This document shows positions 3,001 to 35,935 of a stretch of 64,000 bases of DNA, one piece after another. The notes below the pieces were generated by a model that did not search any database, was not told where the DNA came from, and worked only from the letters and a program-made list of their open reading frames with translations. Both the position numbers and the translations under genes were made by a program. This DNA comes from Terriglobia bacterium (GTDB lineage Bacteria > Acidobacteriota > Terriglobia > 20CM-2-55-15), in the NCBI GenBank assembly GCA_963664115.2, contig CAXWPJ010000002.1, positions 672,001 to 736,000 on the forward strand, given 5' to 3'. Within the stretch, counting starts at the first letter, position 1, and the number at the start of each line of letters is the position of its first letter.

Positions 3001-6000
3001 TTACCGTCCAACCATCGCATCGACATTATCGATGTCGGTGGCAACGATACGTACGACTTTGATTTGGATGAAGCCGATGCCGCCCAGAGCGTCGCCGGGG
3101 TGAATATCGACGATGGCGCAGGCGGTGCTGACCAGATCGATCTGGATTTGTTTTCAACAGGCTTTGATATTTACCTGCATCCTCAAGCTGTTCTACTGAA
3201 TAATCTCAACGTAACGTTTACGGGTGTTGAAACGCTCAACCTTACCGATCATGCCGTAGCGACAACAATCACTACCCAGCCAGGTAGCGGACCAACAGAA
3301 CTTCAGGTCAAGTCCGGGGTAACGATTAAGTCGCACACCGGCGGCAATATTGAGTTGCTCGCCAGGGGTGACTTCACCCTCCAGGCCGGCGGGCTCATCC
3401 AGACAACAGGAAACGTCACCATCCGCGGCGATCACACCAACGTCGTTTCGACCACGATTGATCTGCTCGGCACGATCAACGCGGATAACGTAGCGGTGTT
3501 CGGCAACACTCACAACGACACCGTGAACGTCACGAACGTGACCTCCGGCTCAGAAACGACGATTTCGACCAATGCCGGTGACGATACGATTAACATCCAG
3601 ACCATTGACGCCGATACGACCGTTCATGCCGGTACGGGTAACGATACGGTTAATGTCGGGACGCTTGCCCCAGCAACAAACGGAACCGCGAATGGCATCC
3701 GGGCGCTTCTGACCGTCAATGGCGACGGTAACTCAGGCACCGGTGACACGCTCAACGTCGATGATAGGGGAGACGGCGCGAATACCGGCATTTTGACCTT
3801 GGACGATATCGCCGGGCTGTTCGGTTTCGGCGGCAGTATCGACTACGGCACCCTGGAGACCTTAAACATCCACCTGGGAAACGCTGCCGACACCTTCACG
3901 ATCCAGAGCACGCACTCCCAAGCCACGAATCTCAACACGCGGGGCGGGGTTGACACGATCAACGTTCGGAACATTGCCGGCGTGACGACCGTCAACGGCG
4001 GGGACGGCGTCGATACGATCATTGTGGGCACAACGGCACCGACGGCTGGCGGCACCGCCAATGGCATCGCGGCGCACCTGAAGATCAACGGAAACGGGCA
4101 TACGGGTGCCGGTGACACGCTCAACGTTGATGATTTCGGAGACGGCGCGGGCGATACCGGCGGCATGACCGCGACCAGGATCACCGGGATCTTCGGCGCC
4201 GGCGGCAGTATTACCTACACCACCCTGGAGACATTGAAGATCGATCTGGGGACCGCAGGCGATACCTTCACAATCGACGGTACGCATGGTGGACCCACGA
4301 CAGTCAACGCCGGTACCGGAGAGGACACGATCAATATCAACGGATCGACCGGGACGTTGACGGTTAACGGCCAGGAAGACAACGATACCTTTAACGTCAG
4401 GGCAATCGGCGGCCCGGTAACGATCAATGCGGGTGGCGGCGACGATACGATCAACGTCGGCAGCAGCATTGGCGCCAACTTCCCGAACGTGAACGGCATC
4501 GCCGCGTTGCTGACCATCAACGGCCAGGGTGGCGGCGCTACCGGCGACACGCTCAACGTCGATGAGACCGGCGAGACTGTGGGCAACACGGGCGAGCTGA
4601 CCAATAACGAAGTTACCCTCCTGGGCATGGGCGGCAAGATCGTCTACGGCACGATCGAGACCCTGAATATCTCTCTCGGTTCGGGTGGCGATACGTTCAC
4701 GATCCAGAGTACGCACAGTGCCGACACGAACGTCAACGCAGGCTCCGGACAGGATCTGATTGTCATCAACGGAACTTCCGGAACGCTGGTCGTAAACGGC
4801 GAGAATGGTGACGACATTGTCACCGTTAATGCCACGGGCGCGAGCAGTACGACTACGCTGAACGGGCAGTCCGACAGAGACATATTCAATATCAAGGCGA
4901 TAAGCGGCCCCGTAACTATCAAGGGCGGCAATGACGACGACACCGTTAATGTCGGCAGCAACGCATCGGGTACGGTTACAAACAGAAACAACAACCAGAA
5001 CGGAACGGTCGACAACATCAAGGCGCTACTGAAGGTTGACGGCGATGCCCCCTCCGCAAGCGACATCTTGAACATCGACGATACCGGGGATGCTTCCGGC
5101 GACACGGGCCAGCTGACCTCGACACGCATCACCGGACTGTTTGGCGCCGGCGGCAGCATCACTTACGGGACCGTCGAGACGCTTAACATCGATCTGGGTA
5201 CCGGTGACGACAAGTTCAGGATACTGAGCACGCACGCGGGTCAGACCAACCTGAACACCGGCCCCGGCATCGACGAAATCAACGTCGGTTCGAATGCGCC
5301 GGCCGCCAACGGAGACGTCAACGCGATCGTCGGTCCGGTGGACATCGACGGTGATACCGAATTCGACACCCTGACCGTCGACGATACCGGTGACCCGAAT
5401 GCCAATACCGGCGTACTGACCCTGAACACTCTGACGGGTCTCGGCATGGGTTCGGGCATCACCTACGCCGGCCTTGAGGCCATCGAAATCAGCCTCGGAT
5501 CGGGCGGCAACACGTTCCGGATCGACTCGACGCACGAGGGCACGACCCTCCTCAATGCAGGGACGGTTGCCGACACGATCAACGTTCGGACGATCGACGG
5601 TGACACGACAATTAATGGCGAGACCGGTGGCGATACCATCAATGTAGGTTCGACGGCACCGGTTCACGGCGGCATTGTGGACGGTATCCGAGCTGTCTTG
5701 ACGCTCAACCTTGGCGAGGATGGTGACGGCAATGACTTTGACCAGGTAAATGTCGACGACTCGGATGACGAGAATGACAACGACGGCAGGCTCACCTTAA
5801 ATCGGATCACCGGCCTCGACATGGCCGATGGCGACTACATCGACTACTTCGATGCTGAGGATCTCAATATCGATCTGGGCAGAGGCCACGATACCTTCAC
5901 GATCGAGAGCACCCATACCGGAACGACGAAGCTCGACACCGGTCCCGGCAATGACACGATCTACGTCCAGACGATCGCGGGTGAGACAACGATTAACACC

Positions 6001-9000
6001 CAGTCTGGTGACGACACGATCAATGTCGGTGACACGGTCGACAATGTCGATGCTGGAGACGACTACAACACCACCGATCAGATATCCGCGCTCCTGAAGA
6101 TTGACGGCGGGACTCCTCCAGTCGGCAGCGACATTCTGAATATCTTCGATTCAGGCGATACGACCGACAACATCGGCTTCCTGACCGACGATGGGACCAC
6201 AACCTCGATTACGGGCCTCGACATGTCGAACGGCATCGAATACGTCGACATCGAGGAGCTGAACGTCTTCCTTGGATCGGGTGACGACATCTTCAACGTT
6301 TCCGGTACGGGCTCCGAGACGTGGATCTACGCCGGTTCGGGCGACGATGCGGTCAACATCAATCGGATCGAAGATGAAACGGTCGTGTTCGGCCAGACCG
6401 GTGATGATCGATTCCATGTTGCGGTGACAATCGACCAGGCAAGCGGCTTCCTTGTCGACGTCGATGTCAACGCCGAAGATCCGCTCATCGATCCCCGCAA
6501 TACGGGAACGGGTGCAAATGAAATTTCACCGGTCAACATCGCTCGCAACAGTCAGAACCTGATTCACGCCGAACTGACAATTGACGGCCGTGACGGTGGC
6601 GACCAGTACACGATTTGGCTTGCCAGTTCGGGCGCTGCGCTGATCAACGTCTTCGACACCGGCGCGGTCGGTGGAGATTTCCTGACCGTCTTCGGCTCGG
6701 ACGGCGATGATCTGTTCCTGATGCGTGCCGGTTTCGGCTCGAAGGACCTCAGTGCCCCGTACCAGCCGGACACACCTGCCCAGGTCACAGCGTCACGTGC
6801 GGACCTGGTCCCCGGCGACCTGGCTGCCTTTGGCACTGCGCGCGTGGGCCTGGTGGCACTGCTCAATAATGGCCGTCAGAGCACTGCAGCCGACGTCGAG
6901 CGGGTGAACTACAGCCGGAACATCGAGCTGAACTCGGGGATCAACGGCAACCTGATCGTTCAGGGTGTCGGCGGACGCGATGAATTCTACGTCGACGACA
7001 ACCTGGCGCCGACGCAGCTGTTCGGTGGCAGCACGGCCAACTACTTCCAGTTCGGGCAGCTCTACCATTCCCCGCGCGCCGACAACATCTTTGCCGGAAT
7101 TGCCGATATCGCCGACGAGTTCCAGACCGTCGAGACAACCCGCGGATTCCTGAGCAACGGCAACAGCTTCGACCTGACGGCCATCGGCGCCGTCAACGGA
7201 CCGAACGAATTCGTCGTCCTGAACAACCAGGCAACTTTGAACCTGCTTGGCGGCGACGACGACGACATGTTTACGATTCGGTCTTTCGCGCAGGTGGGCT
7301 CGGTGGATTCCTCCCGTCGCGGGGTGGATATCTCGACCGGTGGCGGAACGAACCAGATTGAGTATGTCGTCGGCGCCCCGATCAACATTGACGGCGGCGG
7401 CGGATTCAACACGCTCAAGGTCATCGGCACCGAGTTCGGAGACGATTACGTCGTTACCGAAAACGGCATTTTCGGTGCGGGCCGCACGGTCAACTTCGTC
7501 AACATCCAGCAGCTCGAGATCGATGCGGCCGAGGGCAACGACCGGTTCTTCATCGTCAGTACTTCTCCCGAGACGTCGGTCATCCTGTCGGGCGGTTTGG
7601 GATCGGACGTCTTCTTCGTCGGTGGTGATGCCCCCGACATCATCAGCCGTGACCTGCTGGGTCACAGCGGCATCATCAGCCACGGCGTCGGAAGCGACGA
7701 TGCATCATTCGACGGCACCAAGGTCAATGAGATTTCTGCGAACGTTGGTGACGACGACGAGGCCGGAATCGTCATCACCCAGTCTGAAGGCGACACGGTT
7801 GTCGTAGACGGTGTTCGGAGTGACAGCTACACGGTTGTCCTGACGCGCCAGCCGTCTGCAGATGTGACCGTGACCGCTTCGGCACCGCGCGGACTCGTCC
7901 GCGATGCTAGTGGTCGTGTCGAACTGCGGCCGACGGCGCAGCTTTTCGATTTCGAGATCGGAACCTACGCCGACACCGTCGAGTTAGTCTTTACGCCCGG
8001 CAACTGGGATACGCCGCAAACGGTCTGGATCCAGGCGGCGACCGGTCAACCGCACACAGGCATCACCAACGGATTCATCAGTCACGATGTCGCCGGAGAC
8101 CGCGTGCCGGGTACCACGACCCAGGCCCTGCGTGTGGTCGGTCAGGATCCGAATCGGCTCGTGGACACGAGTGCCAACTTCGGAGGAAACGACAGCCTGC
8201 GTGGCGCGACCGTCGTCATCACCGAAGGTCCTGGAAAGGGTCTGACGCGCAACGTCATCGGAAATACTGACACCACCTTAATCCTCGACAAGCCCTGGTT
8301 CCTGGATGAAGTGTCCGCCGGTTCGGCCGGTTCGGCGGCAAACCAGAGCGACTACGAAGTTCGACTCTATGAAGGCCTTGCGATTCCCGTCGTATCGGTG
8401 AAGGTCTACTTCCCTGACGCCGGAGCCGCCATCATCGCGCCGGGCGGAATCCTGAGCGTGATCGAGCAGCCCGAAGGCGCGGGATACGCGTTTGGTGCCC
8501 GGACCCGATTCGAGGATAGCTATCAGGTAGTTCTGACCGAGCGTCCGGGTCCGGCCGAATCGGTCACGGTGACCATTGACACGGGTTCCAGCGGACTCCG
8601 GGCCAATCAGGCCAGCCTCACTTTCGACGAAAACAATTGGGATCAGCCGCAAACGGTTCGAGTCGCGATCGGATCCGATGACATCGTCGAGAAGACGGAA
8701 CTGCTTGAGATCGAACACTCGATCGCCGGCGAAGCGATGGAGTCGCTCTTCGTTCGTGTCACCGACGGCGATTCGTCGAACGTCGTGGTCACCGAGACCG
8801 CCGGGTCGACCAGCGTCATCGAAGATTCCCTGTCGCGCACCGACATCCCGCGCGCCGATGCCTACGAAATCGTTCTGAGCCGCAGACCGACGTCAAACGT
8901 GGAAATCGTCGTCCGCGCCGAAGGCACGCGGACCAGCAAGGGCCGGGTAGTCAAGTTCGGCGAGCAGGTCGAAGTGGCCACCAACGCCTCCGGTTTCTCA

Positions 9001-12000
9001 AACACGATCACGCTCGTCTTTACGCCCGACAACTGGGATCAGGCGCAGACAGTTCGGGTCAAGGCCCTTAATGACGGTGTGGTTGACGGTGGCGACACCA
9101 AGGTCTTCCCGAGACTGGCTGACGACACGAGCCGCATCCAGGGTCCGCTCCGGATCCAGGGCGGTGGTGGCCAGGGTTCACTGGTTGGTCTGCCGATTCC
9201 AGTCTTGTTGCCCGGCGAGACGAATGAGTTCCTGCCTTCCGGCGCAATCCAGGCCCCGGAGGCAGCCGGCAGTTCGAGCGTCGTCGTCAGCGCTGACGAC
9301 TTGAGCGTCTTCATGATCAAGTACGGTCTGACGTTCGGTCAGGAGGCCGGTGCCGGGACGTTCGACGCTGTGGTAGGAAAGACGCTGCGTATACTCGACG
9401 GCCGGAACGCAACGGAGTTCGACGACCGGTTTGGCCCGCAGCCGGACGAATCTCTTCCTGAAACGTTCAACCCGGCGAATCCGGTCCACCAGCGTCTGGT
9501 GCCGTTCCGCGAGATCTTAGGCGCAACGGATTTGTTGAACGGAACCGTCAGGCTGACGTTCAACCTGAGCTGGAACTTCGCCATGACCGCCGGCGATGAA
9601 TTTGCGCTGATCAATTCCTCTCCGGCGAACTTCTTCGCCGTGGAAGATGACCAGGTCGATCTGATGCTGGTCCTCGACTCCGACGCCCGGAGCGATGAAG
9701 AAGGCCGGCTGATCTTCCATACAGAAAACGACCCCAACGTGGATATTCCGATGGCGAACCGCGGTCAGCTCATCGGTCTTGGCATGCACGACGGCCGGAC
9801 ATTGGGTGAAGGCGCCGGTGCGAAACGGCTGCCGGCGGGCATCGTCTTCGACGAGATCGAGATGCTCGACATCACGCTGGGCGGCGGCAAGGACCACTTC
9901 GTCATCGATGGAACGCACAGCGGTGCGACACGCGTCAACGGCGGAGGCGGTAACGACGTGATCGAGGTGCTCGGAATCTCCGGAGTGACGACGGTAAACG
10001 GCGGTCCGGGTGACAACACGACGACGGTCGGGGATCCGACGACCGACGGACGAACGCTTTCACGCATCGCTGCGCTGCTCAGTGTCGGTGGTGACATTCC
10101 TTCGGCGATCGCCCGGACGACGGTCCGCGGCGAACCCGATGTCTTCGCGCCCGGCGGCGGCCTGATCGCAGCGGGTTCCACCAACGAGCAGGAGATCCTG
10201 ATCAACGCCGGAGGCGGGACGTTCACGATCCGCTTCAAGGGCGTTGTTACCGACCCGGATGCGCTTCCGCCGGCCGGTGTCGAAAGCGCACCGATCAACC
10301 ACGACGCCGACGCTGCGACGATCAAGCAGGCATTGATCGATGTGGGCGGCCTGACCGACGCCGACTTCGAGGTCGTCCGGTTCGGAGACCGCATCGTCAT
10401 CCGCTTCACCGAGACAGGCCAGTTCGCCAAGAAGCCGATGCATGTCCTCGGTACGGGTTCTGGAAACCTGCTCCAGGGCGGCACGAATACGCTGAACGTC
10501 ATCGGCACGGCCGATGCGCTGAACACCTGGGCGGTTCTGACCGAGTCGACGCTGACCGGAATGGGCACGACGGTCCACAACTCGATCCAGACCGTCTTTG
10601 TCGACGACCCGCAGCAGAGGCAGGGCGAAGATGATCTCCGGAAATTCAAGCTGATCTATGACAGTGTTGAAACATCGGAGCTCGACTACTCGTCAACGGC
10701 TGCCGAGATGGAAGCGGCGCTTGAACTGCTGCCGTCGATCGGGGACGGGAACGTCAGCGTTTCCAAGGTCGACAACGTCTTCATCATTCGTTTCCAGGGC
10801 GACCTGACGAATCGGAACCTGGAACTTTCAGCAATTACGACGCGGGCTGAGGACACGCACGTCTTCGTAGGAGTCCGCGAACCCGGAATCGATAAGCTTG
10901 ACCCGACGATCTTCCCGCCGAGCGCCGAGACGCAGGCGAGAAACGATGTCCAGACCGTTCGGATCGACGCGACCGGCGGTACGTTCCGCCTCGAGGTCGC
11001 CGGCGCCTGGACGGGTGACGTAGCCTACAACGCAACGGCCGATGAAGTCCGGGATGCGCTCCAGCGCCTCGTAGGCAGCCAGTTTGCCGACGATGTCTCC
11101 GTCGTCCGGTTTGCCACGACCTACCAGGTGATGTTCCAGGGCCTGTTGCGACAGGTGATGGGCGGCGTCGGAACCGGCCTGATGAAGGTCGATACGTCCA
11201 ACCTGACCGGGACGGCCGTGATCACGACCCGGATGGACGGCATCAACTACTACTACATCGATGAGCTGAATATCGAATTCGGTTCGGGCAGCGATGTCCT
11301 GAACGTCCAGAGCACGTCGGCTGAAGAAACCAACATCGCGCTCCATGACGGCAACGACCGGATCTTTATTTCGTCCGATGCCGACCTGGATCGAAACACG
11401 CTGGCACCGGACGGCGCAGCGTACGCCTTCGACTTCCTGACCGGAAATGTTGATGGCATCGTCGGCGACCTGAACATCGATGCGGGTGACGGCCGGCACA
11501 TCATGATGATCAGCGATGAGTCGACCGAGCTCACGAAGGGTACCGAAGACGATCCGGTTACCATCCAGCGCACAGCGGCGCGGCCCGATGTCGAGATCGA
11601 GATCCTGGGCCTGAACTTCGTCGGCGGGGCGATTCGCTACGGCGCGGCCCCGGCCGGGAACTTCTTCGACGGCATCACACTGTGGGGCGGCCAGAACGGA
11701 AACGAATTCGATATCGATGCCACGCATCGGCGTGATGATGCGACGTGGCGGACGCAGACGACGCTCAACACTGGCGATGGCGCAGATACGGTCAGTGTAT
11801 CGCTGACAGCCGCAGCCGACGGATTCTTCGTTCTGAACACACAGGGAGACGGCGACGACATCGACGCCAGGACCTCGACGCTGCCGATGGTCATCTTCGG
11901 CGGTGAAGACAGCGACACGATATTCGGCGGCCAGGGTGGTGACATCATTTTCGGTGACTTGGGCAGGGTCGTTTACCGTGACGAGATCGGTGACGTATCC

Positions 12001-28149: not shown

Positions 28150-28770
28150 GTGAGAGTCCACTACGGGTTGATTCTGGTTCTTGCAGTCGGCTTGTTGTCG
28201 GTATCGACGAGTGCCGGTCAGGAACTGGAACTGTCCCGCAAGGTGATCGAAATCGAGGGACATCCCACACGGGGACCGGTGGATGCGCCCGTGACGATCG
28301 TCGAATTCGGAGACTTCGAATGTCCTTACTGTGGCGCATTGTTTACGACCCTGCAGGCGGTTCAAAGGAACTACCCGGACCAGGTTCGACTCGTGTTTCG
28401 GCAGTTCCCACTCATTTTTACGCATCAGCACGCGCAGAAGGCAGCCGAAGCGTCCTTGTGCGCCCATGAGCAAAATCAATTTTGGGCGTACCACGACTCT
28501 TTGTTCAGAGGCCAGGATGACATCGCTGTCCCGGCTTTAAAGCAGCGTGCGGTGGATATGGGCCTCGACACGGGCCGGTTCAATGAATGCCTGGATTCGG
28601 GTGTCAAGTGGGTCGATGCCGAGCACGACATCGACGACGGGGTGAACGCCGCGGTGTATAGCACGCCGACAATGTTCATCAACGGTCTGATACTCGAAGG
28701 CAGCCATCCTTACCAAAGCATCATTGAAGTGGTCGAGTCAGAACTGGAACGCATCGCCCTAAGCCGGTAA
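28150..28770 (+). CDS. DsbA-like thioredoxin-fold oxidoreductase
   Basis: Signal peptide; APVTIVEFGDFECPYC; FRQFPL; STPTMFING (cis-Pro loop). Confidence 0.9.
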   Translation: MRVHYGLILVLAVGLLSVSTSAGQELELSRKVIEIEGHPTRGPVDAPVTIVEFGDFECPYCGALFTTLQAVQRNYPDQVRLVFRQFPLIFTHQHAQKAAEASLCAHEQNQFWAYHDSLFRGQDDIAVPALKQRAVDMGLDTGRFNECLDSGVKWVDAEHDIDDGVNAAVYSTPTMFINGLILEGSHPYQSIIEVVESELERIALSR

Positions 28771-28827: not shown

Positions 28828-29964
28828 ATGAGACACCCAATACTTCTGTCACGCACTGTTGTACTGCTTGCCGGCCTGCTCGTAACCGCTTCCGGCGTCG
28901 CACAGACTCTTGAACCTTCAAAGATCGACGTGTCCGAACTCGGCCCTCAGGTGGGAGAGATCGTCCCGGATTTCAGCTTGATGGACCAGAACGGAGAAAC
29001 CTGGACGCGTGAATCGATCATGGGACCGAACGGTGCGATGCTGGTGTTTGTCCGCTCGGCTGGTTGGTGACCATATTGCCGAACGCAGCTCGTGGAGCTG
29101 CAAAGTCAGGTCGAAGAGCTCGCCGAACGGGGTATCGGGCTGGCCGTGATCAGTTACGATGCGGTCGACGTTCTGACCGCGTTCTCCCAGGATCAGGCAA
29201 TCACCTTCCCGATGCTGTCGGACCTCGGTTCCGAGACGATCCGAAGATTCGGTATTCTCAATTCGGTTCCGGAATGGGCCCTCGGGCCCAACAGCGATGA
29301 TCCTGCCGTAGCTGCCGATGTCGCGACCTACGTATCGGTCGTCAATCCAAGGGAACTTATGATCGGCATCGCGTTTCCGGGCACCTTCATTCTCGATACC
29401 GACGGTCGCGTGTCGTCGCGGTATTTCGAAGATTTCTATATCGAACGGAATACCGTGTCGAGCATTATCATGCGGCTTGGGGGTGGGGAAGCCCCCGTTG
29501 AAGCCACGAAAATATCCACTCCGCAACTCGACATCACGACCTATCCAAGCGACGCGGTTGTGGCACCGGGCAATCGTTTTTCGCTGGCTCTTGACGTCCA
29601 GCCGGGCCCCGGAATGCATGTCTATGCGCCCGGTGCGACCGGCTATCAGGTGATCTCCCTGAAGATCGATCCTCAGCCTTTCGTGAGAATCCGGTCGATG
29701 GAGTACCCCGAATCGGCGAACTATTATTTTGAGCCCCTGGACGAGACGGTGCCGGTCTACGAAGAACCATTCAAGCTGATCCAGGAGATCGTCCTGGAGG
29801 GTTCACCTCGGGCACAGGCGGCGTTTCGTGAACAAGAGTTCCTGACGCTCACAGGCACAATTGAATACCAGGCCTGCGACGCCAGCATCTGCTACATCCC
29901 CAGCTCCGTACCCGTTTCGTGGACCCTGTCGCTCGAGGGTTTGTTGCGTCGACAGCCACGCTAA
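28828..29964 (+). CDS. Probable selenoprotein: AhpC/TSA (peroxiredoxin-like) UxxC domain fused to DsbD-N-like domain, 378 aa with UGA29068 read as Sec
   Basis: ORFs 28828..29070 and 29092..29964 share a frame and join as FVRSAGW-TGA-PYCRTQLVELQ. A SECIS-like hairpin follows. The C-terminal domain has PGMHVY and YQACDASICY.P. Confidence 0.8.
29068..29112 (+). promoter_or_regulatory. Candidate bacterial SECIS element
   Basis: Perfect stem GCAGCTC-GTG-GAGCTGC (29085-29101) starts 14 nt after the UGA, with G first in the apical loop. A lower GACC/GGTC pairing is possible. Confidence 0.7.
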
Positions 29965-30276: not shown

Positions 30277-31299
30277 GTGGCTTGGCCCTCGAATCTCCCG
30301 TTGTTGAACGCCGTACATTGCTTGTGCGCGATTGCCGAGCCCACACGTCTGCGTTTGATCCATCTATTGGCCCAGGGAGAACTGACCGTCAGCGAGATCA
30401 GTCAGATATTGGGTCAGAGTCAGCCTCGTGTCAGTCGGCATCTAAGGCTGCTGTTGGACGGCGGCTTCGTGGCGCGCCTTCCTGAAGGCGCATGGGTATT
30501 CTACCGGCTGGTTGACGCGGGTACCCGGAGCACCGCCGCAGACCTGGCGAACATGCTCGTTGAGAGGCTTGACGCGGGGGATCCCGTTCTTGCCGGTGAT
30601 CTGGAACGATTGACGTCGGTCAAGGCGGAACGGGCGGCAGAAGCGTCCGCCTATTTCGAAGCGCATGCCACCGACTGGGTGAGGGTGCGGGCTCTCTATC
30701 AACCGGTCGCCAAGGTTGAAGCTGCGATGCGTGAGCTTCTCGGACCGCAGTCGGTCGATTTTCTGGTGGATTTCGGTACCGGTACAGGGCGTGTCCTGGA
30801 GGTTCTGGGCGGCCTGTATCGGCGTGCGGTCGGGTTTGATACGAATCACGCCATGCTGAGTATTGCGCGTGTAAATTTGGATCGGGCACAGATTCGTCAT
30901 GCACGCGTGCAACATGGAAATTTCCTGTCCCTGCCGAGATCGTTGGACGAACCTGATGTTGTTGTGATCCATCAGGTCCTGCACTATCTGGACGATCCTG
31001 GGGCGGCTGTTGGGTCGGCTGCACGCCTGCTCGGGCCGAACGGTCGACTTTTGATCGTCGACTTCGCTCCTCATGAGATGGAATTTCTCCGAACGGAACA
31101 TGCGCATCGCCGACTGGGCTATTCTGACGACGAAGTGTTCGAGTGGTGTCGGGGGGCGGGACTCGAAGCCCAGGAGGTCCGTCAGGTCAAGCCACCCCGG
31201 GAACGATCCGGGGAAGTGTCGTCACCCGCCGTATCGCTGTGGCTTGCCTGCCACCCTGCGCATTCGGGCTCCGTCGAAGACCTGGAGATGGCCGGATGA
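30277..31299 (+). CDS. sahR: SahR-like regulator: ArsR HTH + SAM-binding methyltransferase domain
   Basis: EPTRLRL..LL..GELTVSE...ILGQSQPRVSRHL; DFGTGTG; HQVLHYLDDP; EHAHRRLG. First gene of the metF-metH operon. Confidence 0.85.
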   Translation: MAWPSNLPLLNAVHCLCAIAEPTRLRLIHLLAQGELTVSEISQILGQSQPRVSRHLRLLLDGGFVARLPEGAWVFYRLVDAGTRSTAADLANMLVERLDAGDPVLAGDLERLTSVKAERAAEASAYFEAHATDWVRVRALYQPVAKVEAAMRELLGPQSVDFLVDFGTGTGRVLEVLGGLYRRAVGFDTNHAMLSIARVNLDRAQIRHARVQHGNFLSLPRSLDEPDVVVIHQVLHYLDDPGAAVGSAARLLGPNGRLLIVDFAPHEMEFLRTEHAHRRLGYSDDEVFEWCRGAGLEAQEVRQVKPPRERSGEVSSPAVSLWLACHPAHSGSVEDLEMAG

Positions 31300-32204
31300 G
31301 CCGGGTGAAGACTGACACGGTCAAACCACCCCGCGTGTCGTTCGAGTTTTTTCCTCCCCGAACGCCTCAGATGGAGGTAGACCTCTGGCACTCAGTTCAA
31401 CGACTTGAGCCGCTCGAGCCCGCGTTTGTTTCGGTGACCTATGGTGCGGGTGGAAGTACCCGCGAACGCACGCACGCGACCGTCAAGCGAATCGTTAAAG
31501 AAACACCGTTGGACGTTGCCGGACACCTGACGTGTGTCGCCGCTTCACGTGAGGAAGTAAATGCGGTGATTCGGGATTACTGGAACGTGGGAGTGCGGCA
31601 CGTTGTCGCTTTGCGGGGCGATCCGCCGGCAGGGCCGGGCAGCGACTATAAACCCCATCCAGAAGGCTATGCCACGAGCGCCGATCTGGTAGCAGGGGTC
31701 AAACAGTGTGCGCCGTTTGAGGTCAGCGTCGGTTGCTACCCTGAAGTTCATCCCGAGGCCGCGAGCCCGCAGGCCGATCTGGAAATGCTCAAACGCAAGG
31801 TGGACGCCGGCGCGGACCGCGCGATTACGCAGTTCTTTTTCGAGGCGGACGTGTTCTTGCGGTTTTTGGAGAGGGTGCGCGGGGCCGGGATCACGATTCC
31901 GATTGTTCCGGGTATCATGCCGATTCCCAACTTCAAGAACATTCAAAAATTTGCGGCTAAAGTAGGGGCCAACATACCGGTCCGGCTGAGGAAGATCTTA
32001 GAAGGTCTTGACACAGACACTGTAACCCAACCGCTTGTGGCAGCAAGCTGTGCGGCCGAGCTCTGCCTCGAGCTTCGCGAGCAGGGCGTTGATGACTTCC
32101 ATTTCTATACCTTGAACCGGCCCGAACTCACTTCCGCGACCTGCCGTATGCTCGGGATCAAGCCCAACAACGTGCCCACCCCGGCAGAGGCCCCGGCGTT
32201 ATGA
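31296..32204 (+). CDS. metF: 5,10-methylenetetrahydrofolate reductase
   Basis: VSFEFFPP; [13 protein letters not shown]; ALRGDPP; YPEVHP; AITQFFF; FHFYTLN. The ATG at 31296 overlaps the upstream stop. Confidence 0.95.
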
Positions 32205-35200
32205 CACGAAGCGAACGTCTTGTTCTGCTCCATAGAGAAGCCGAATCGCGCATCCTGGTCCTCGATGGTGCGATGGGTACGATGATTCAGCAGCACCAGT
32301 TGAGTGAAGAAGATTTCCGAGGCGATCGATTCAAGGAACACAGCAGGGAAATACGAGGCAACAATGACATCGTCGCGCTGTCGCAACCTGACCTGTTGCG
32401 CGAAATCCATACGCGGTACTTTCGGGCCGGTGCGGATATCGGCAAGACGAATACCTTCAATGCGAACGCGATATCGCAAGCGGATTACGACATGGTGGAC
32501 TTCGTATACGAACTCAACCATGCGGCTGCCACGATAGCCAGGGAAGCTGCGGTGGCAGTTGAGGCCGCGGACGGCCGTCCCCGCTTTGTGGCGGGTGTTT
32601 TGGGTCCTACGAACCGGACGGCTTCAATGTCGCCCGATGTTAACGATCCTGGATTTCGGAACATCACCTTCGATCTCCTGCGGGAAGCTTACCTCAACCA
32701 GGCGCGCGCCCTTGTCGATGCCGGTGTCGACATTCTGTTGCTGGAGACGATTTTCGACACGCTCAACGCCAAGGCCGCTTTGTTTGCGATCGACGAGCTT
32801 TTCGAGGAGGTCGGGGGCAGCCTTCCGATAATGATTTCCGGTACGATCACGGATCGTTCCGGCCGGCTCCTTTCCGGACAGACAGTCGAAGCCTTTTGGA
32901 ATTCGATCCGTCATGCCGAGCCCTTTGCCGTCGGCCTCAACTGCGCCCTCGGTGCGAAAGAACTCCGTCAGTACGTCGAGGAACTGTCCGCGCTTGCCCA
33001 CTGTTTGGTCAGTGCCCATCCGAATCTCGGCCTTCCTAACGAACTCGGTGGGTACGACGAACCACCCGAAACCATGGCAGCGCTGGTGGGTGAGTTTGCA
33101 GCATCAGGCCTCGTTAATATTGTGGGTGGCTGTTGTGGTACCACGCCCGATCACATCGCGCAGATCGTAAGGACCGTCAGCGAAGTCAATCCGCGCGTAC
33201 CCCCGGCTCAGAAGAATAGATTGCAATTGTCTGGCCTCGAACCCCTCAATCATGATGCCGGCCGAGCGAGCGAACAAACGGCGACGTTCATCAACATCGG
33301 TGAGCGCGCGAACGTAACCGGTTCGGCAAAGTTCAGAAAACTGATTACTGCCGGTAATTTCGAAGCGGCCCTGGAAGTGGCCCGTCAGCAGGTCCAGAAC
33401 GGAGCCCAGATCATCGACGTCAATATGGACGAAGGCATGCTGGATTCCGAAGCGGTCATGTTGAAGTTTCTGAACCTGATCGCCGGGGAGCCGGATATTG
33501 CCCGGGTCCCGGTGATGATCGATTCGTCCAAATGGTCGGTTCTCGAAGCGGGTCTCCGATCGGTGCAGGGCAAGTCGGTCGTGAACTCGATCAGTCTCAA
33601 AGAAGGTGAAGCACCCTTCCTGCGGCAGGCGCGGCTCGCGAAACGTTACGGCGCAGCCATCGTTGTTATGGCGTTCGACGAAAGCGGCCAGGCCGACACG
33701 GCGGACCGCAAAGTCGAGATCTGCACGCGCTGCTACAAGCTGCTGACCGAGGAAGTCGGCATGCTTCCTGAAGACATCATTTTCGACCCGAACATATTTC
33801 CGGTGGCGACGGGAATCGAAGAACACAACGAATACGCCGTTGCTTACATCGAAGCTATCCACCGCATCAAAGCAACGCTCCCCCACGCGCATGTGTCCGG
33901 TGGCGTCTCGAACGTGTCGTTTTCGTTCCGGGGGAACAATGCAGTCCGCGAAGCGATGCATTCGGTGTTTCTCTATCACGCGATCCAGGCCGGGATGGAT
34001 ATGGGCATTGTCAACGCTGGTCAGTTGGCGATTTATGAGGACCTCGATTCGGAGCTTCGGGAACAAATCGAAGATGTCGTTTTAAACCGGAGGCCGGATG
34101 CAACCGACCGGCTTGTCGAGCTTGCGGAAAATCTGAAAGGCCAGAAACGCGCCGACAGCGGGCCTGACCTTAGCTGGCGGAACAAGCCTGTTGCGATGCG
34201 CATCGAGCACGCCCTCGTCCACGGTGTCGCGGAGTTCATCGTCCAGGATACGGAAGAAGCTCGAGAAGAAATAGGTAGCCCTCTGGATGTTCTGGAAGGG
34301 CCGTTGATGGACGGCATGAGCAAGGTGGGTGACCTCTTCGGTGCAGGCAAGATGTTTCTGCCGCAGGTCGTCAAGAGCGCACGTGTGATGAAGAAAGCCG
34401 TTGCTCACCTGGTTCCCTTCATGGAGAAAGAAAAGTTGGAACGGGGGGATACCTCGAAAACTGCAGGGCGCGTTGTGCTCGCCACGGCCAGGGGAGATGT
34501 TCATGACATCGGAAAAAACATCGTCGCCGTTGTGTTGCAGTGCAACAATTTCGAAGTGGTGGATCTGGGCGTCATGGTGCCCGCGGCAGAAATTCTGGAG
34601 ACGGCACGCGCCATGGAGGCAGATTTGATCGGTGTGTCGGGTTTGATTACGCCGAGCCTGGACGAGATGTGTCACGTCGCCGCAGAAATGGAAAGGGAAG
34701 GTTTCGACATACCCTTGCTGATCGGTGGTGCGACGACCAGTCGCCTGCACACCGCGGTCAAGATCAGTCCGAACTACTCGAATGGGCCGACGATTCATGT
34801 CGCCGACGCATCACGCGCTGTTGGAACCGTGGGGAACCTTATGTCCCGGGACCAGCGTGAAAACTACATAAGTGAGATCAGTAAGGAATACACGCGTATC
34901 CGGGAAACGTACCTGGCACAGGACAGGAGCCAGGCAATGTTGACGTTGACCCAGGCCCGAGCCAACCAAGTTACCATTGACTGGTCCAGGTACATCCCAC
35001 AACGACCCAGTTTCACGGGACTCAAAACGTTTACTGCATATGATCTTGCCGAATTAGTCGACTACATCGATTGGGGACCATTCTTTCATGCGTGGGAACT
35101 GTCAGGACGCTTTCCCAACATTTTGGACGATCCCAGGAAGGGGAAAGCGGCACACGCTCTGTTCGACGACGCCAAGGCGATGTTGAAGCAGATCGTCGAT

Positions 35201-35935
35201 GAAGCTTGGATTTCGGCTCGTGCCGTCATCGGTTTCTGGCCCGCGAACACTGAGGGAGACGACATTCTCGTCTACGCGGACGATGAACGAACCACCTCCC
35301 GTGGTATCTTCCACACCTTACGCCAGCAGTTGGTCAAGTCGTCTGGCCGCAGGAACGTCGCTCTTGCCGACTATATTGCGCCAGCAGAGTCTGGAGTTTC
35401 CGACTATCTCGGTGGCTTCGCCGTGACCACGGGTCACGGTGAACGCTCACGCGTGGAGCGCTTCAAAAGCGAACACGACGACTACTCGGCTCTCATACTC
35501 CAGGCGCTCACAGACCGATTTGCTGAGGCCCTTGCCGAACGTATGCACGAGCGGGTACGGCATGAATTCTGGGGTTATTCCCCCGGGGAGGATCTCGATG
35601 CGAATGAACTTATTGCCCAGCGTTATCGCGGGATTCGGCCGGCTCCCGGCTATCCTGCCCAGCCCGACCACACGGAAAAAGGCTTCCTGTTCGACATCCT
35701 TGAGGCGGAGGCCAGGACTGGCATAAAGCTCACTGAAAGCTATGCCATGTGGCCGGGTGCTTCCGTCAGCGGACTCTATTTCAGCCATCCCGAGAGCCGG
35801 TACTTCGGTGTGGGTAAGATCGCACGGGATCAGATCGAAGACTACGCGCAGCGCAAAGGCATGAGCCGTTCTGAGTGCGAAAAGTGGTTGGCCCCGATCC
35901 TGGGTTACGTACCGGACGCGCGCGACGTCGCTTAA
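32201..35935 (+). CDS. metH: Cobalamin-dependent methionine synthase
   Basis: [10 protein letters not shown]; GLNCALG; GGCCGTTP; [10 protein letters not shown]; [11 protein letters not shown] (B12-binding); [12 protein letters not shown]. Confidence 0.97.

What the first reader, a model, noticed from the sequence alone, without database searches (positions are those of the whole stretch)
28828..29964. Hidden selenoprotein: secreted UPYC peroxiredoxin-like domain fused to a DsbD-N-like domain
Seen: two ORFs in the same frame are separated by a single TGA that falls exactly at the first Cys position of a thioredoxin-fold motif (W-U-P-Y-C), and a perfect GCAGCTC-GTG-GAGCTGC hairpin starts 14 nt downstream. 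Known: UxxC motifs and a SECIS just 3' of the UGA are hallmarks of bacterial selenoproteins. Inference: this is one 378-aa exported protein in which a Sec redoxin is linked to a DsbD-N-like CxxxxC domain (CDASIC), forming an intramolecular electron relay. Standard gene callers would split it.
Basis: partly seen in the sequence, partly recalled or inferred. Interest (0 to 1): 0.78.

Follow-up and report, generated by a model that had tools for sequence, protein, structure and literature searches.

The report
Exported selenium redoxin with DsbD-alpha domain
The stop codon that seems to split this gene very likely encodes selenocysteine, giving one probably exported redox protein that joins a selenium-containing thioredoxin-type domain to a DsbD-alpha-type domain and likely relays electrons outside the cytoplasm; selenoproteins of this class are known, but we found no description of this two-domain design.

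Summary
Observation confirmed. Window 28828-29964 is one frame broken only by TGA at codon 81 (RSAGW*PYC), with the 7-bp hairpin 14 nt downstream. The genome has selA, selB, selD and tRNA-Sec. In 175 related loci this codon is only TGA (98) or Cys (77). A bacterial-SECIS consensus test passes in 87 of 90 distinct TGA loci and 2 of 63 Cys loci. The N-domain is a Prx-like/TlpA-like UxxC thiol-disulfide oxidoreductase without the peroxiredoxin motif. In a close homolog the C-domain folds like DsbD-alpha/ScsB-alpha (Z 11.6, 10.3), and both of its cysteines are invariant. The relay and its direction are inferred, not shown; the most likely route is CcdA/DsbD to Sec redoxin to alpha domain to envelope clients, as in DsbD and plant SOQ1. 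Novelty is modest: close homologs, one including the second domain, already stand as 'Prx-like 1' selenoproteins in the 2008 GOS supplement. My paper searches found no description of the fusion. This scan found the same family before on other DNA.

The parts
28828..29964 (+). Whole gene: 378-aa predicted exported Sec-redoxin / DsbD-alpha fusion
   Evidence: unsplit Cys homologs of about 380 aa at 54-62% identity
28819..28824 (+). Purine-rich ribosome-binding-site-like AGGGGG, 3 nt before the ATG
   Evidence: sequence; function inferred
28828..28902 (+). Predicted Sec-pathway signal peptide (residues 1-25, ending ...ASGVA-Q)
   Evidence: hydropathy peak at residues 5-23; hydrophobic N-terminus in 110 of 110 full-length homologs examined (crude test, no control, no SignalP)
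28951..29415 (+). Prx-like/TlpA-like thioredoxin-fold redoxin domain (Pfam AhpC-TSA, residues 42-196) with a two-helix insert near residues 147-168
   Evidence: PF00578 E 1.3e-24; model; Foldseek hits to BCP/AhpE/ResA
29068..29070 (+). In-frame TGA read as selenocysteine U81 of the U-P-Y-C motif (C84 at 29077-29079)
29085..29101 (+). Bacterial SECIS: 7-bp stem, GUG loop 21 nt after the UGA
   Evidence: consensus criteria from PMC13188914
29374..29382 (+). F-P-G motif (183-185), at the position of the thioredoxin-fold cis-proline
   Evidence: motif in 151 of 157 homologs; the role as cis-Pro is recalled family knowledge
29506..29934 (+). DsbD-alpha / ScsB-alpha-like Ig-fold domain (residues about 227-369) with the invariant HxYAP motif (264-268)
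   Evidence: PF11412 over cut-off; homolog model matches 6c29 Z 11.6, 1jpe Z 10.3, 2k0r Z 9.1
29875..29892 (+). CxxxxC pair C350/C355 (CDASIC)
   Evidence: Cys at both positions in 121 of 121 aligned proteins
28150..28770 (+). Upstream exported DsbA/DsbG-like thioredoxin-fold gene (CPYC), 57 nt before the start; candidate client in this lineage only
   Evidence: PF13462; among loci L027-L214 found only in L027 and L029

Best explanation
The gene very likely makes one exported selenoprotein, with UGA read as selenocysteine under an in-frame SECIS hairpin, and this protein likely works as a soluble two-step reductive relay in the cell envelope. Shown from sequence and comparison: the single in-frame TGA at the first CxxC position, the complete Sec machinery, the TGA-linked hairpin, a thioredoxin-fold domain and a DsbD-alpha-fold domain with an invariant Cys pair. 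Inferred: SelB-tRNA-Sec binds the GUG-loop hairpin and inserts U81; the chain is exported by its signal peptide; a CcdA/DsbD-type membrane conduit reduces the U81-C84 pair; U81 then reduces the C350-C355 disulfide of the alpha domain; the alpha domain passes electrons to envelope thioredoxin-fold clients (such as the DsbA/G-like protein next door) or to oxidised proteins. This is the beta-to-gamma-to-alpha order of DsbD with gamma and alpha joined in one soluble chain. Selenium would supply faster exchange at the entry step, and plain Cys replaces it where the Sec system is missing. My odds: Sec recoding about 0.97, both centres redox-active in one reductive path about 0.8, this direction about 0.55.
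For: Sec machinery: selA 523 bits, selB 384 bits, selD 360 bits with its own TGA, tRNA-Sec(UCA) 71.6 bits. Codon 81 is TGA in 68 of 68 covering loci (70 examined, own locus included) and TGA 30 / Cys 77 in the 107 covering loci (109 examined; the metagenome scan used a Cys query and is biased to Cys); no other codon occurs. SECIS consensus is met in 87 of 90 TGA and 2 of 63 Cys loci, with a compensatory third-position pair (G-C 56, A-U 30, G-U 3, mismatch 1 in TGA loci; A-U 0 of 63 in Cys loci). At least 7 TGA/Cys changes on a 157-row tree, 5 forced by well-supported branches. selB in 47 of 50 TGA-carrying genomes; the three Cys-only genomes G121, G328, G360 lack selA and selB. In G120 the gene lies beside selC-selA-selB-selD. 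The own selD and a second redoxin carry the same hairpin shape. Alpha fold. The own genome has only a 240-aa CcdA and no other PF11412 domain, and CcdA-type conduits hand electrons to thioredoxin-like proteins (PMC3322552, passages). Precedent for the direction: SOQ1 Trx-like domain reduces its nDsbD-like domain one way, -274 to -252 mV (10.1101/2024.11.01.621559, passages).
Against: No selenium, protein or activity data. The distance between the two redox centres was not measured: the model report gives only pLDDT 94.7 and pTM 0.89. 41 of 52 carrier genomes have a DsbD_TM match in a long (580 aa or more) frame, 9 only short CcdA-like frames and 2 none (my count; G251 and G439 look like one genome), so the protein is not generally a stand-in for a missing DsbD. 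selA is common in the phylum anyway (300 of 401), which weakens 47 of 51 among carriers. No redox partner gene is a conserved neighbour. E. coli nDsbD normally donates to thioredoxin-fold proteins such as CcmG (PMC7347389, passages), which fits the opposite direction. The Cys spacing is CxxxxC, against C103-C109 in E. coli.
Confidence: 0.6

Rival explanations
1. Same selenoprotein, opposite flow: the alpha domain is a built-in reductant (fed by DsbD-gamma or a ResA/TlpA-like protein) that recycles the Sec redoxin, and the Sec centre is the terminal catalyst that reduces envelope disulfides, sulfenic acids or a periplasmic peroxidase.
For: nDsbD reduces CcmG, DsbC and DsbG. The redoxin resembles ResA/TlpA/BCP folds. 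Selenium usually sits at the substrate-attacking site (general knowledge). The genome encodes several other thioredoxin-fold proteins with WCxxC motifs and N-terminal hydrophobic stretches.
Against: In this genome the only conduit is CcdA, so another thioredoxin-fold protein would be needed first. The one tested natural Trx-plus-nDsbD-like fusion I read about runs the other way.
Confidence: 0.27
2. The Sec domain is itself a peroxidase and the alpha domain recycles it.
For: The best sequence and fold matches of the N-domain are BCP/AhpE peroxiredoxins; many homologs are labelled 'peroxiredoxin'.
Against: PxxxT/SxxC is absent in 157 of 157 homologs, and a cis-Pro-type motif is present in 151. 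All NCBIfam peroxiredoxin scores are far below cut-off. Caulobacter PrxL, another Prx-like protein without the Prx residues, had no detectable peroxidase activity (PMC3322552).
Confidence: 0.09
3. The TGA is a true stop (split gene, pseudogene or assembly error), or is read as Trp or Cys.
For: Gene callers split it; an in-frame GTG at 29092 could start the second ORF; one database homolog has W at this place; three TGA loci fail the SECIS test; one TGA locus (L080) is broken further downstream.
Against: The same TGA stands in 98 loci across several phyla, and only Cys alternates with it. A split would separate the signal peptide and half of the active site from the rest. TGA is the commonest end of long open frames here (972 of 2064; all six frames, rough). 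The only UCA tRNA is a tRNA-Sec. Independent contigs agree.
Confidence: 0.03

Closest known systems
Prx-like thiol:disulfide oxidoreductase selenoproteins (PF00578, UxxC; 'Prx-like 1' of Zhang and Gladyshev 2008, PMC2398784; Table 1 of PMC13188914)
   Same: PF00578 domain, UxxC motif, in-frame UGA with a bSECIS. GOS Dataset S1 lists close homologs (RSADWUPYC...) under '#Prx-like 1', among them JCVI_READ_1599685, which runs through to QACDDAIC.
   Different: Signal peptide, two-helix insert and fused DsbD-alpha domain. The fusion is not among the four in GOS Fig. S1, 'DsbD' does not occur in that paper's main text, no such entry is in the review's Table 1, and no NCBIfam model passes its cut-off.
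DsbD / ScsB periplasmic domains (gamma and alpha)
   Same: A thioredoxin-fold pair plus an Ig-fold Cys pair; alpha fold Z 9-12. Free alpha domains served by CcdA through a thioredoxin-like protein were proposed in PMC3322552.
   Different: No transmembrane beta domain; the redoxin is of the Prx-like/TlpA type and has Sec; CxxxxC spacing; identity to solved alpha domains is only 11-21%.
SOQ1 lumenal domains (Arabidopsis; Trx-like + NHL + nDsbD-like CTD)
   Same: A Trx-like and an nDsbD-like domain in one chain across a membrane; transfer from Trx to CTD shown in vitro; CcdA proposed as donor.
   Different: Eukaryotic, has an NHL propeller, uses Cys; no SOQ1 entry is among the listed fold matches, so this is an analogy and not shown orthology.
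Caulobacter PrxL / TlpA (ScsB clients)
   Same: Exported Prx-like thioredoxin-fold proteins kept reduced by a DsbD-family alpha domain.
   Different: Separate single-domain Cys proteins; sequence relation not tested here.

Membership tests
Bacterial selenoprotein | In-frame UGA aligned with a conserved Cys of homologs | tested here: met
   TGA 98 / TGC 60 / TGT 17 in 175 loci; Cys in 111 of 120 database proteins
Bacterial selenoprotein | bSECIS: 3-9 nt loop, 4-16 bp stem, G[G/U] at the loop start, 16-37 nt from UGA, MFE at most -7.5 | tested here: met
   3-nt GUG loop, 7 bp, 21 nt, -11.6 (criteria); 87 of 90 against 2 of 63. My own script, not bSECISearch.
Bacterial selenoprotein | selA, selB, selC, selD in the genome | tested here: met
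Bacterial selenoprotein | Selenium in the protein | not testable with these tools
   needs 75Se labelling or MS
Prx-like thiol:disulfide oxidoreductase (PF00578, UxxC; GOS 'Prx-like 1') | PF00578 domain with UxxC | tested here: met
   E 1.3e-24, 86.9 bits against cut-off 26; homologs filed there in GOS Dataset S1
True peroxiredoxin (Prx, TxxU/TxxC) | PxxxT/SxxC(U) peroxidatic motif | tested here: not met
   0 of 157; NCBIfam Prx models far below cut-off
True peroxiredoxin (Prx, TxxU/TxxC) | Peroxidase activity | not testable with these tools
   needs an assay
DsbD-alpha / ScsB-alpha domain | Ig-like beta-sandwich of the nDsbD type | tested here: met
   PF11412 30.8 bits against cut-off 25; homolog P0003 model: Z 11.6 (rmsd 2.4, 124 aligned), 10.3 (2.2, 107), 9.1 (2.7, 109); next unrelated hit 7.8
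DsbD-alpha / ScsB-alpha domain | Conserved Cys pair on a late beta-hairpin | tested here: met
   C350 and C355 in 121 of 121; spacing one residue shorter than E. coli C103-C109
DsbD-alpha / ScsB-alpha domain | Cap loop shielding the pair (F70 in E. coli) | tested here: inconclusive
   The conserved YFEPLDE segment (L304 invariant) is a candidate, but no residue-level structural alignment was returned
Full DsbD/ScsB transporter | Transmembrane beta domain in the same chain | tested here: not met
   no PF02683 match in the protein; the only strong hydrophobic stretch is the N-terminus
SOQ1-like Trx-to-CTD relay | Electron transfer from the Trx-like to the nDsbD-like domain; Msr activity | not testable with these tools
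   needs in vitro exchange and Msr assays

The most novel reading that the evidence does not exclude
This family is a free, selenium-driven 'gamma-alpha' half of DsbD: a bacterial counterpart of the SOQ1 relay in which CcdA feeds a Sec redoxin that drives its own DsbD-alpha-type domain as a terminal envelope repair reductase, possibly a methionine-sulfoxide reductase with an Ig fold, widespread in Acidobacteriota and marine Pseudohongiellaceae and hidden by gene callers.
Probability: 0.15. Interest if true: 0.62.

Novelty: new variant of a known kind. Interest (0 to 1): 0.33.

Why it matters
The recoding is textbook, and homologous sequences were predicted as selenoproteins in 2008, so a specialist would not be surprised. 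What it adds: a widespread family (a match at E 1e-25 or better, some partial or to paralogs, in 52 of 401 sampled genomes of the phylum; also marine Gammaproteobacteria) that annotation cuts in two and often labels 'peroxiredoxin'; a clean natural Sec/Cys series in which the SECIS decays after the switch; and a compact two-domain protein on which the free gamma-to-alpha relay proposed in PMC3322552, and the value of selenium in envelope redox, can be tested directly.

Tried and rejected
(1) 'Replaces a missing DsbD' as a general rule: rejected, as most carriers have a long DsbD-type frame; it holds only for this genome and 9 of 52 others. (2) Conserved neighbourhood: none of redox type; the commonest neighbours (32 of 175 loci) are a mixed cluster of RTPWG/PDG-type secreted proteins and shadow frames. 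(3) De novo selenoproteome scan by hairpin: too unspecific. (4) Rfam: only a sub-threshold malK-III hit. (5) Promoter and terminator scan: nothing above chance. (6) RNA runs: near-identical short contigs lie inside the downstream part (X17-X19), none bridges the TGA at high identity, so transcription is not shown. (7) Docking of the two domains: no result was obtained, so it is no evidence either way. (8) The IQ-TREE run did not finish; FastTree was used, with 18 of 175 loci left out as truncated or duplicate; midpoint root only, so the direction Sec-to-Cys is not established. (9) Sequence searches of the PDB listed only redoxin-domain hits. (10) No DsbB match in the own genome (97% complete), and its MsrA has no evident signal peptide: no client identified. 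(11) SOQ1 is not listed in the fold searches, which does not exclude kinship. (12) G226 has TGA copies but no selA match; it has selB and tRNA-Sec and is 95% complete, so I read this as an assembly gap.

Full report
Observation. The frame 28828-29964 (+) has one internal stop, TGA at 29068-29070 (codon 81), in RSAGW*PYCRTQLVELQ. The hairpin GCAGCTC-GTG-GAGCTGC (29085-29101) begins 14 nt later and folds at -11.6 kcal/mol. C350 and C355 form CDASIC, and C84 is the only other Cys. The hairpin alone is not far above chance (z -2.24 at best; 356 of 12,246 loose candidates pass a crude genome scan), so the case rests on comparison.

The codon is real and the genome can read it. Contigs of three studies are identical across the TGA (one may be the source sample). 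The genome (4.89 Mb, 97% complete) has selA, selB, selD and a tRNA-Sec with anticodon UCA. Its selD has its own in-frame TGA followed by a 7-bp stem with a G-led triloop one base nearer, and another redoxin (C9:74840) has a near-identical hairpin at the same offset. The closest named relatives (82-83%) are Terriglobia MAGs, so the host is probably an acidobacterium (inference).

Homologs alternate between TGA and Cys only. Of 70 loci (own locus plus 69 from genomes), 68 cover the codon and all have TGA. Of 109 loci, 107 cover it: genome loci 24 TGA and 3 Cys; metagenome loci, found with a Cys query and so biased, 6 TGA and 74 Cys. Among 120 database proteins, 111 are unsplit with Cys, 8 are downstream fragments and 1 has W. 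With the site masked, a FastTree of 157 rows needs at least 7 TGA/Cys changes, 5 forced by starred branches, against 50 for shuffled labels; the root is not fixed. selB is present in 47 of 50 TGA-carrying genomes (50 of the 69 loci were given). selA is present in 47 of 51 phylum carriers against 300 of 401 in the background. More telling, the three genomes whose read copy is Cys-only lack selA and selB, and G400 holds one copy of each type along with selA and selB. In G120 the gene adjoins selC-selA-selB-selD.

The hairpin is a SECIS. It meets the four consensus criteria quoted in PMC13188914. Applied to distinct loci, 87 of 90 TGA and 2 of 63 Cys sequences pass. Five core pairs are intact in 88 of 90 against 16 of 63; the third-position pair switches between G-C (56) and A-U (30) in TGA loci, and the encoded peptide is held to xQLVEL while Cys forms drift. 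Only 1.6% of synonymous recodings fold as well. Kin are not independent, so the p-value printed overstates; the repeated loss in separate Cys clades is the better argument.

Anatomy. A hydrophobic N-terminus (110 of 110 homologs) suggests export. Residues 42-196 match PF00578 and 245-359 match PF11412; no NCBIfam family passes. The model of the mature protein is confident (pLDDT 94.7, pTM 0.89), and its best matches are BCP/AhpE/ResA folds. The peroxiredoxin motif is absent in 157 of 157 homologs and a cis-Pro-type motif is present in 151, so the domain is a thiol-disulfide oxidoreductase by motif. The model of a natural homolog fragment (P0003) matches ScsB-alpha and DsbD-alpha above all else (Z 11.6, 10.3, 9.1). 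Both alpha-domain cysteines are invariant.

Mechanism. Two conserved redox pairs of the kinds that exchange electrons in DsbD sit in one probably exported chain, so a relay is the natural reading, but it is not shown, and the distance between the centres is unmeasured. For the direction I favour redoxin to alpha: this genome has only a 240-aa CcdA and no other alpha domain; PMC3322552 proposes CcdA to thioredoxin-like protein to free alpha domain; and SOQ1 passes electrons one way from its Trx-like to its nDsbD-like domain. Against a simple 'split DsbD' story, 41 of 52 carriers also have a long DsbD-type frame, and no partner gene is a conserved neighbour; the upstream DsbA/G-like gene is shared only with L027 and L029. 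The reverse flow, as from nDsbD to CcmG, stays a serious rival.

What is known. UxxC Prx-like oxidoreductases are a listed selenoprotein family. GOS Dataset S1 already holds close homologs with U under 'Prx-like 1', one reaching the alpha-domain cysteines; 13 places match RSADW, some of them shorter single-domain relatives. The fusion is not in that paper's Fig. S1 or text nor in the 2026 review's table. Full-text searches returned no paper that describes it; the library lacks most subscription journals, and I did not search the supplements of later catalogues such as deep-Sep. What I saw of each paper: PMC13188914, passages and section 7 parts 1-2 of 3 (whole Table 1); PMC2398784, passages, supplement 1 whole, search hits in supplement 3; PMC3322552, passages and section 6; 10.1101/2024.11.01.621559, passages (supplements closed); PMC7347389, passages; PMC12013277, one passage; others, search listings only. 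Earlier notes of this scan report the same family in other genomes; they are not independent support.

Verdict. A real, well-supported hidden selenoprotein; a known class with a domain design that I found undescribed; the relay is likely and its direction open. Interest 0.33.

Noticed in passing
G000 C9:74840 (-), C12:242608-242925 (+; L023), C2:298974 (-; L024), C10:243789 (+): Further in-frame TGA redoxins in this genome: RMHT*PFC with a near-identical SECIS, RGTW*PNS (UxxS), RGHW*PYC (the frame seems broken further down) and a Grx-like KYG*GSC.
   Followed up: partly
G000 C9:453301-454224 (L010): selD is itself a selenoprotein (CAG*AGK) with a GTCCAGG-GGA-CCTGGAC hairpin.
   Followed up: partly
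L213 (G120:C15:55000-66000), 3935-9426: The family gene sits directly before tRNA-Sec (opposite strand), selA, selB and selD; in L186 a Cys form lies next to a selA homolog.
   Followed up: partly
window 29053-29110: The roughly 50 nt around the TGA and SECIS are shared at 85% or more with many otherwise unlike redoxin genes in the same metagenomes and RNA runs (summed depth 50-100 times the rest of the gene), which points to a common UGA-SECIS module in many selenoproteins.
   Followed up: no
G226 C3, C4, C6 (L205-L208): Four near-identical TGA copies of the gene in one genome with selB and tRNA-Sec but no selA match.
   Followed up: partly
G000, many contigs (e.g. C2:743546, C1:1200): One identical sequence recurs at dozens of places, likely a high-copy insertion element.
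   Followed up: no
G376:C1:91470-96836; G242:C12:45890-54703; G446:C71:5496-9431: A family copy lies within 4-8 kb of a full DsbD-type gene in two genomes, and a PF11412 match in a family-sized frame lies 2 kb from selB in a third.
   Followed up: no
window 30277-35935: Downstream ArsR-methyltransferase fusion, followed by metF-like and metH-like genes (named from their translations); no link to the finding seen.
   Followed up: no
L082 (JAKUTA010000301.1): A TGA copy with a bacterial SECIS on a 1.9-kb contig in a MAG titled Poseidoniales archaeon; probably a mis-binned contig.
   Followed up: no
homolog set: Two length classes (about 270 and about 300 aa after the Sec codon) that seem to differ by the helical insert in the redoxin domain; many genomes carry several paralogs.
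   Followed up: no
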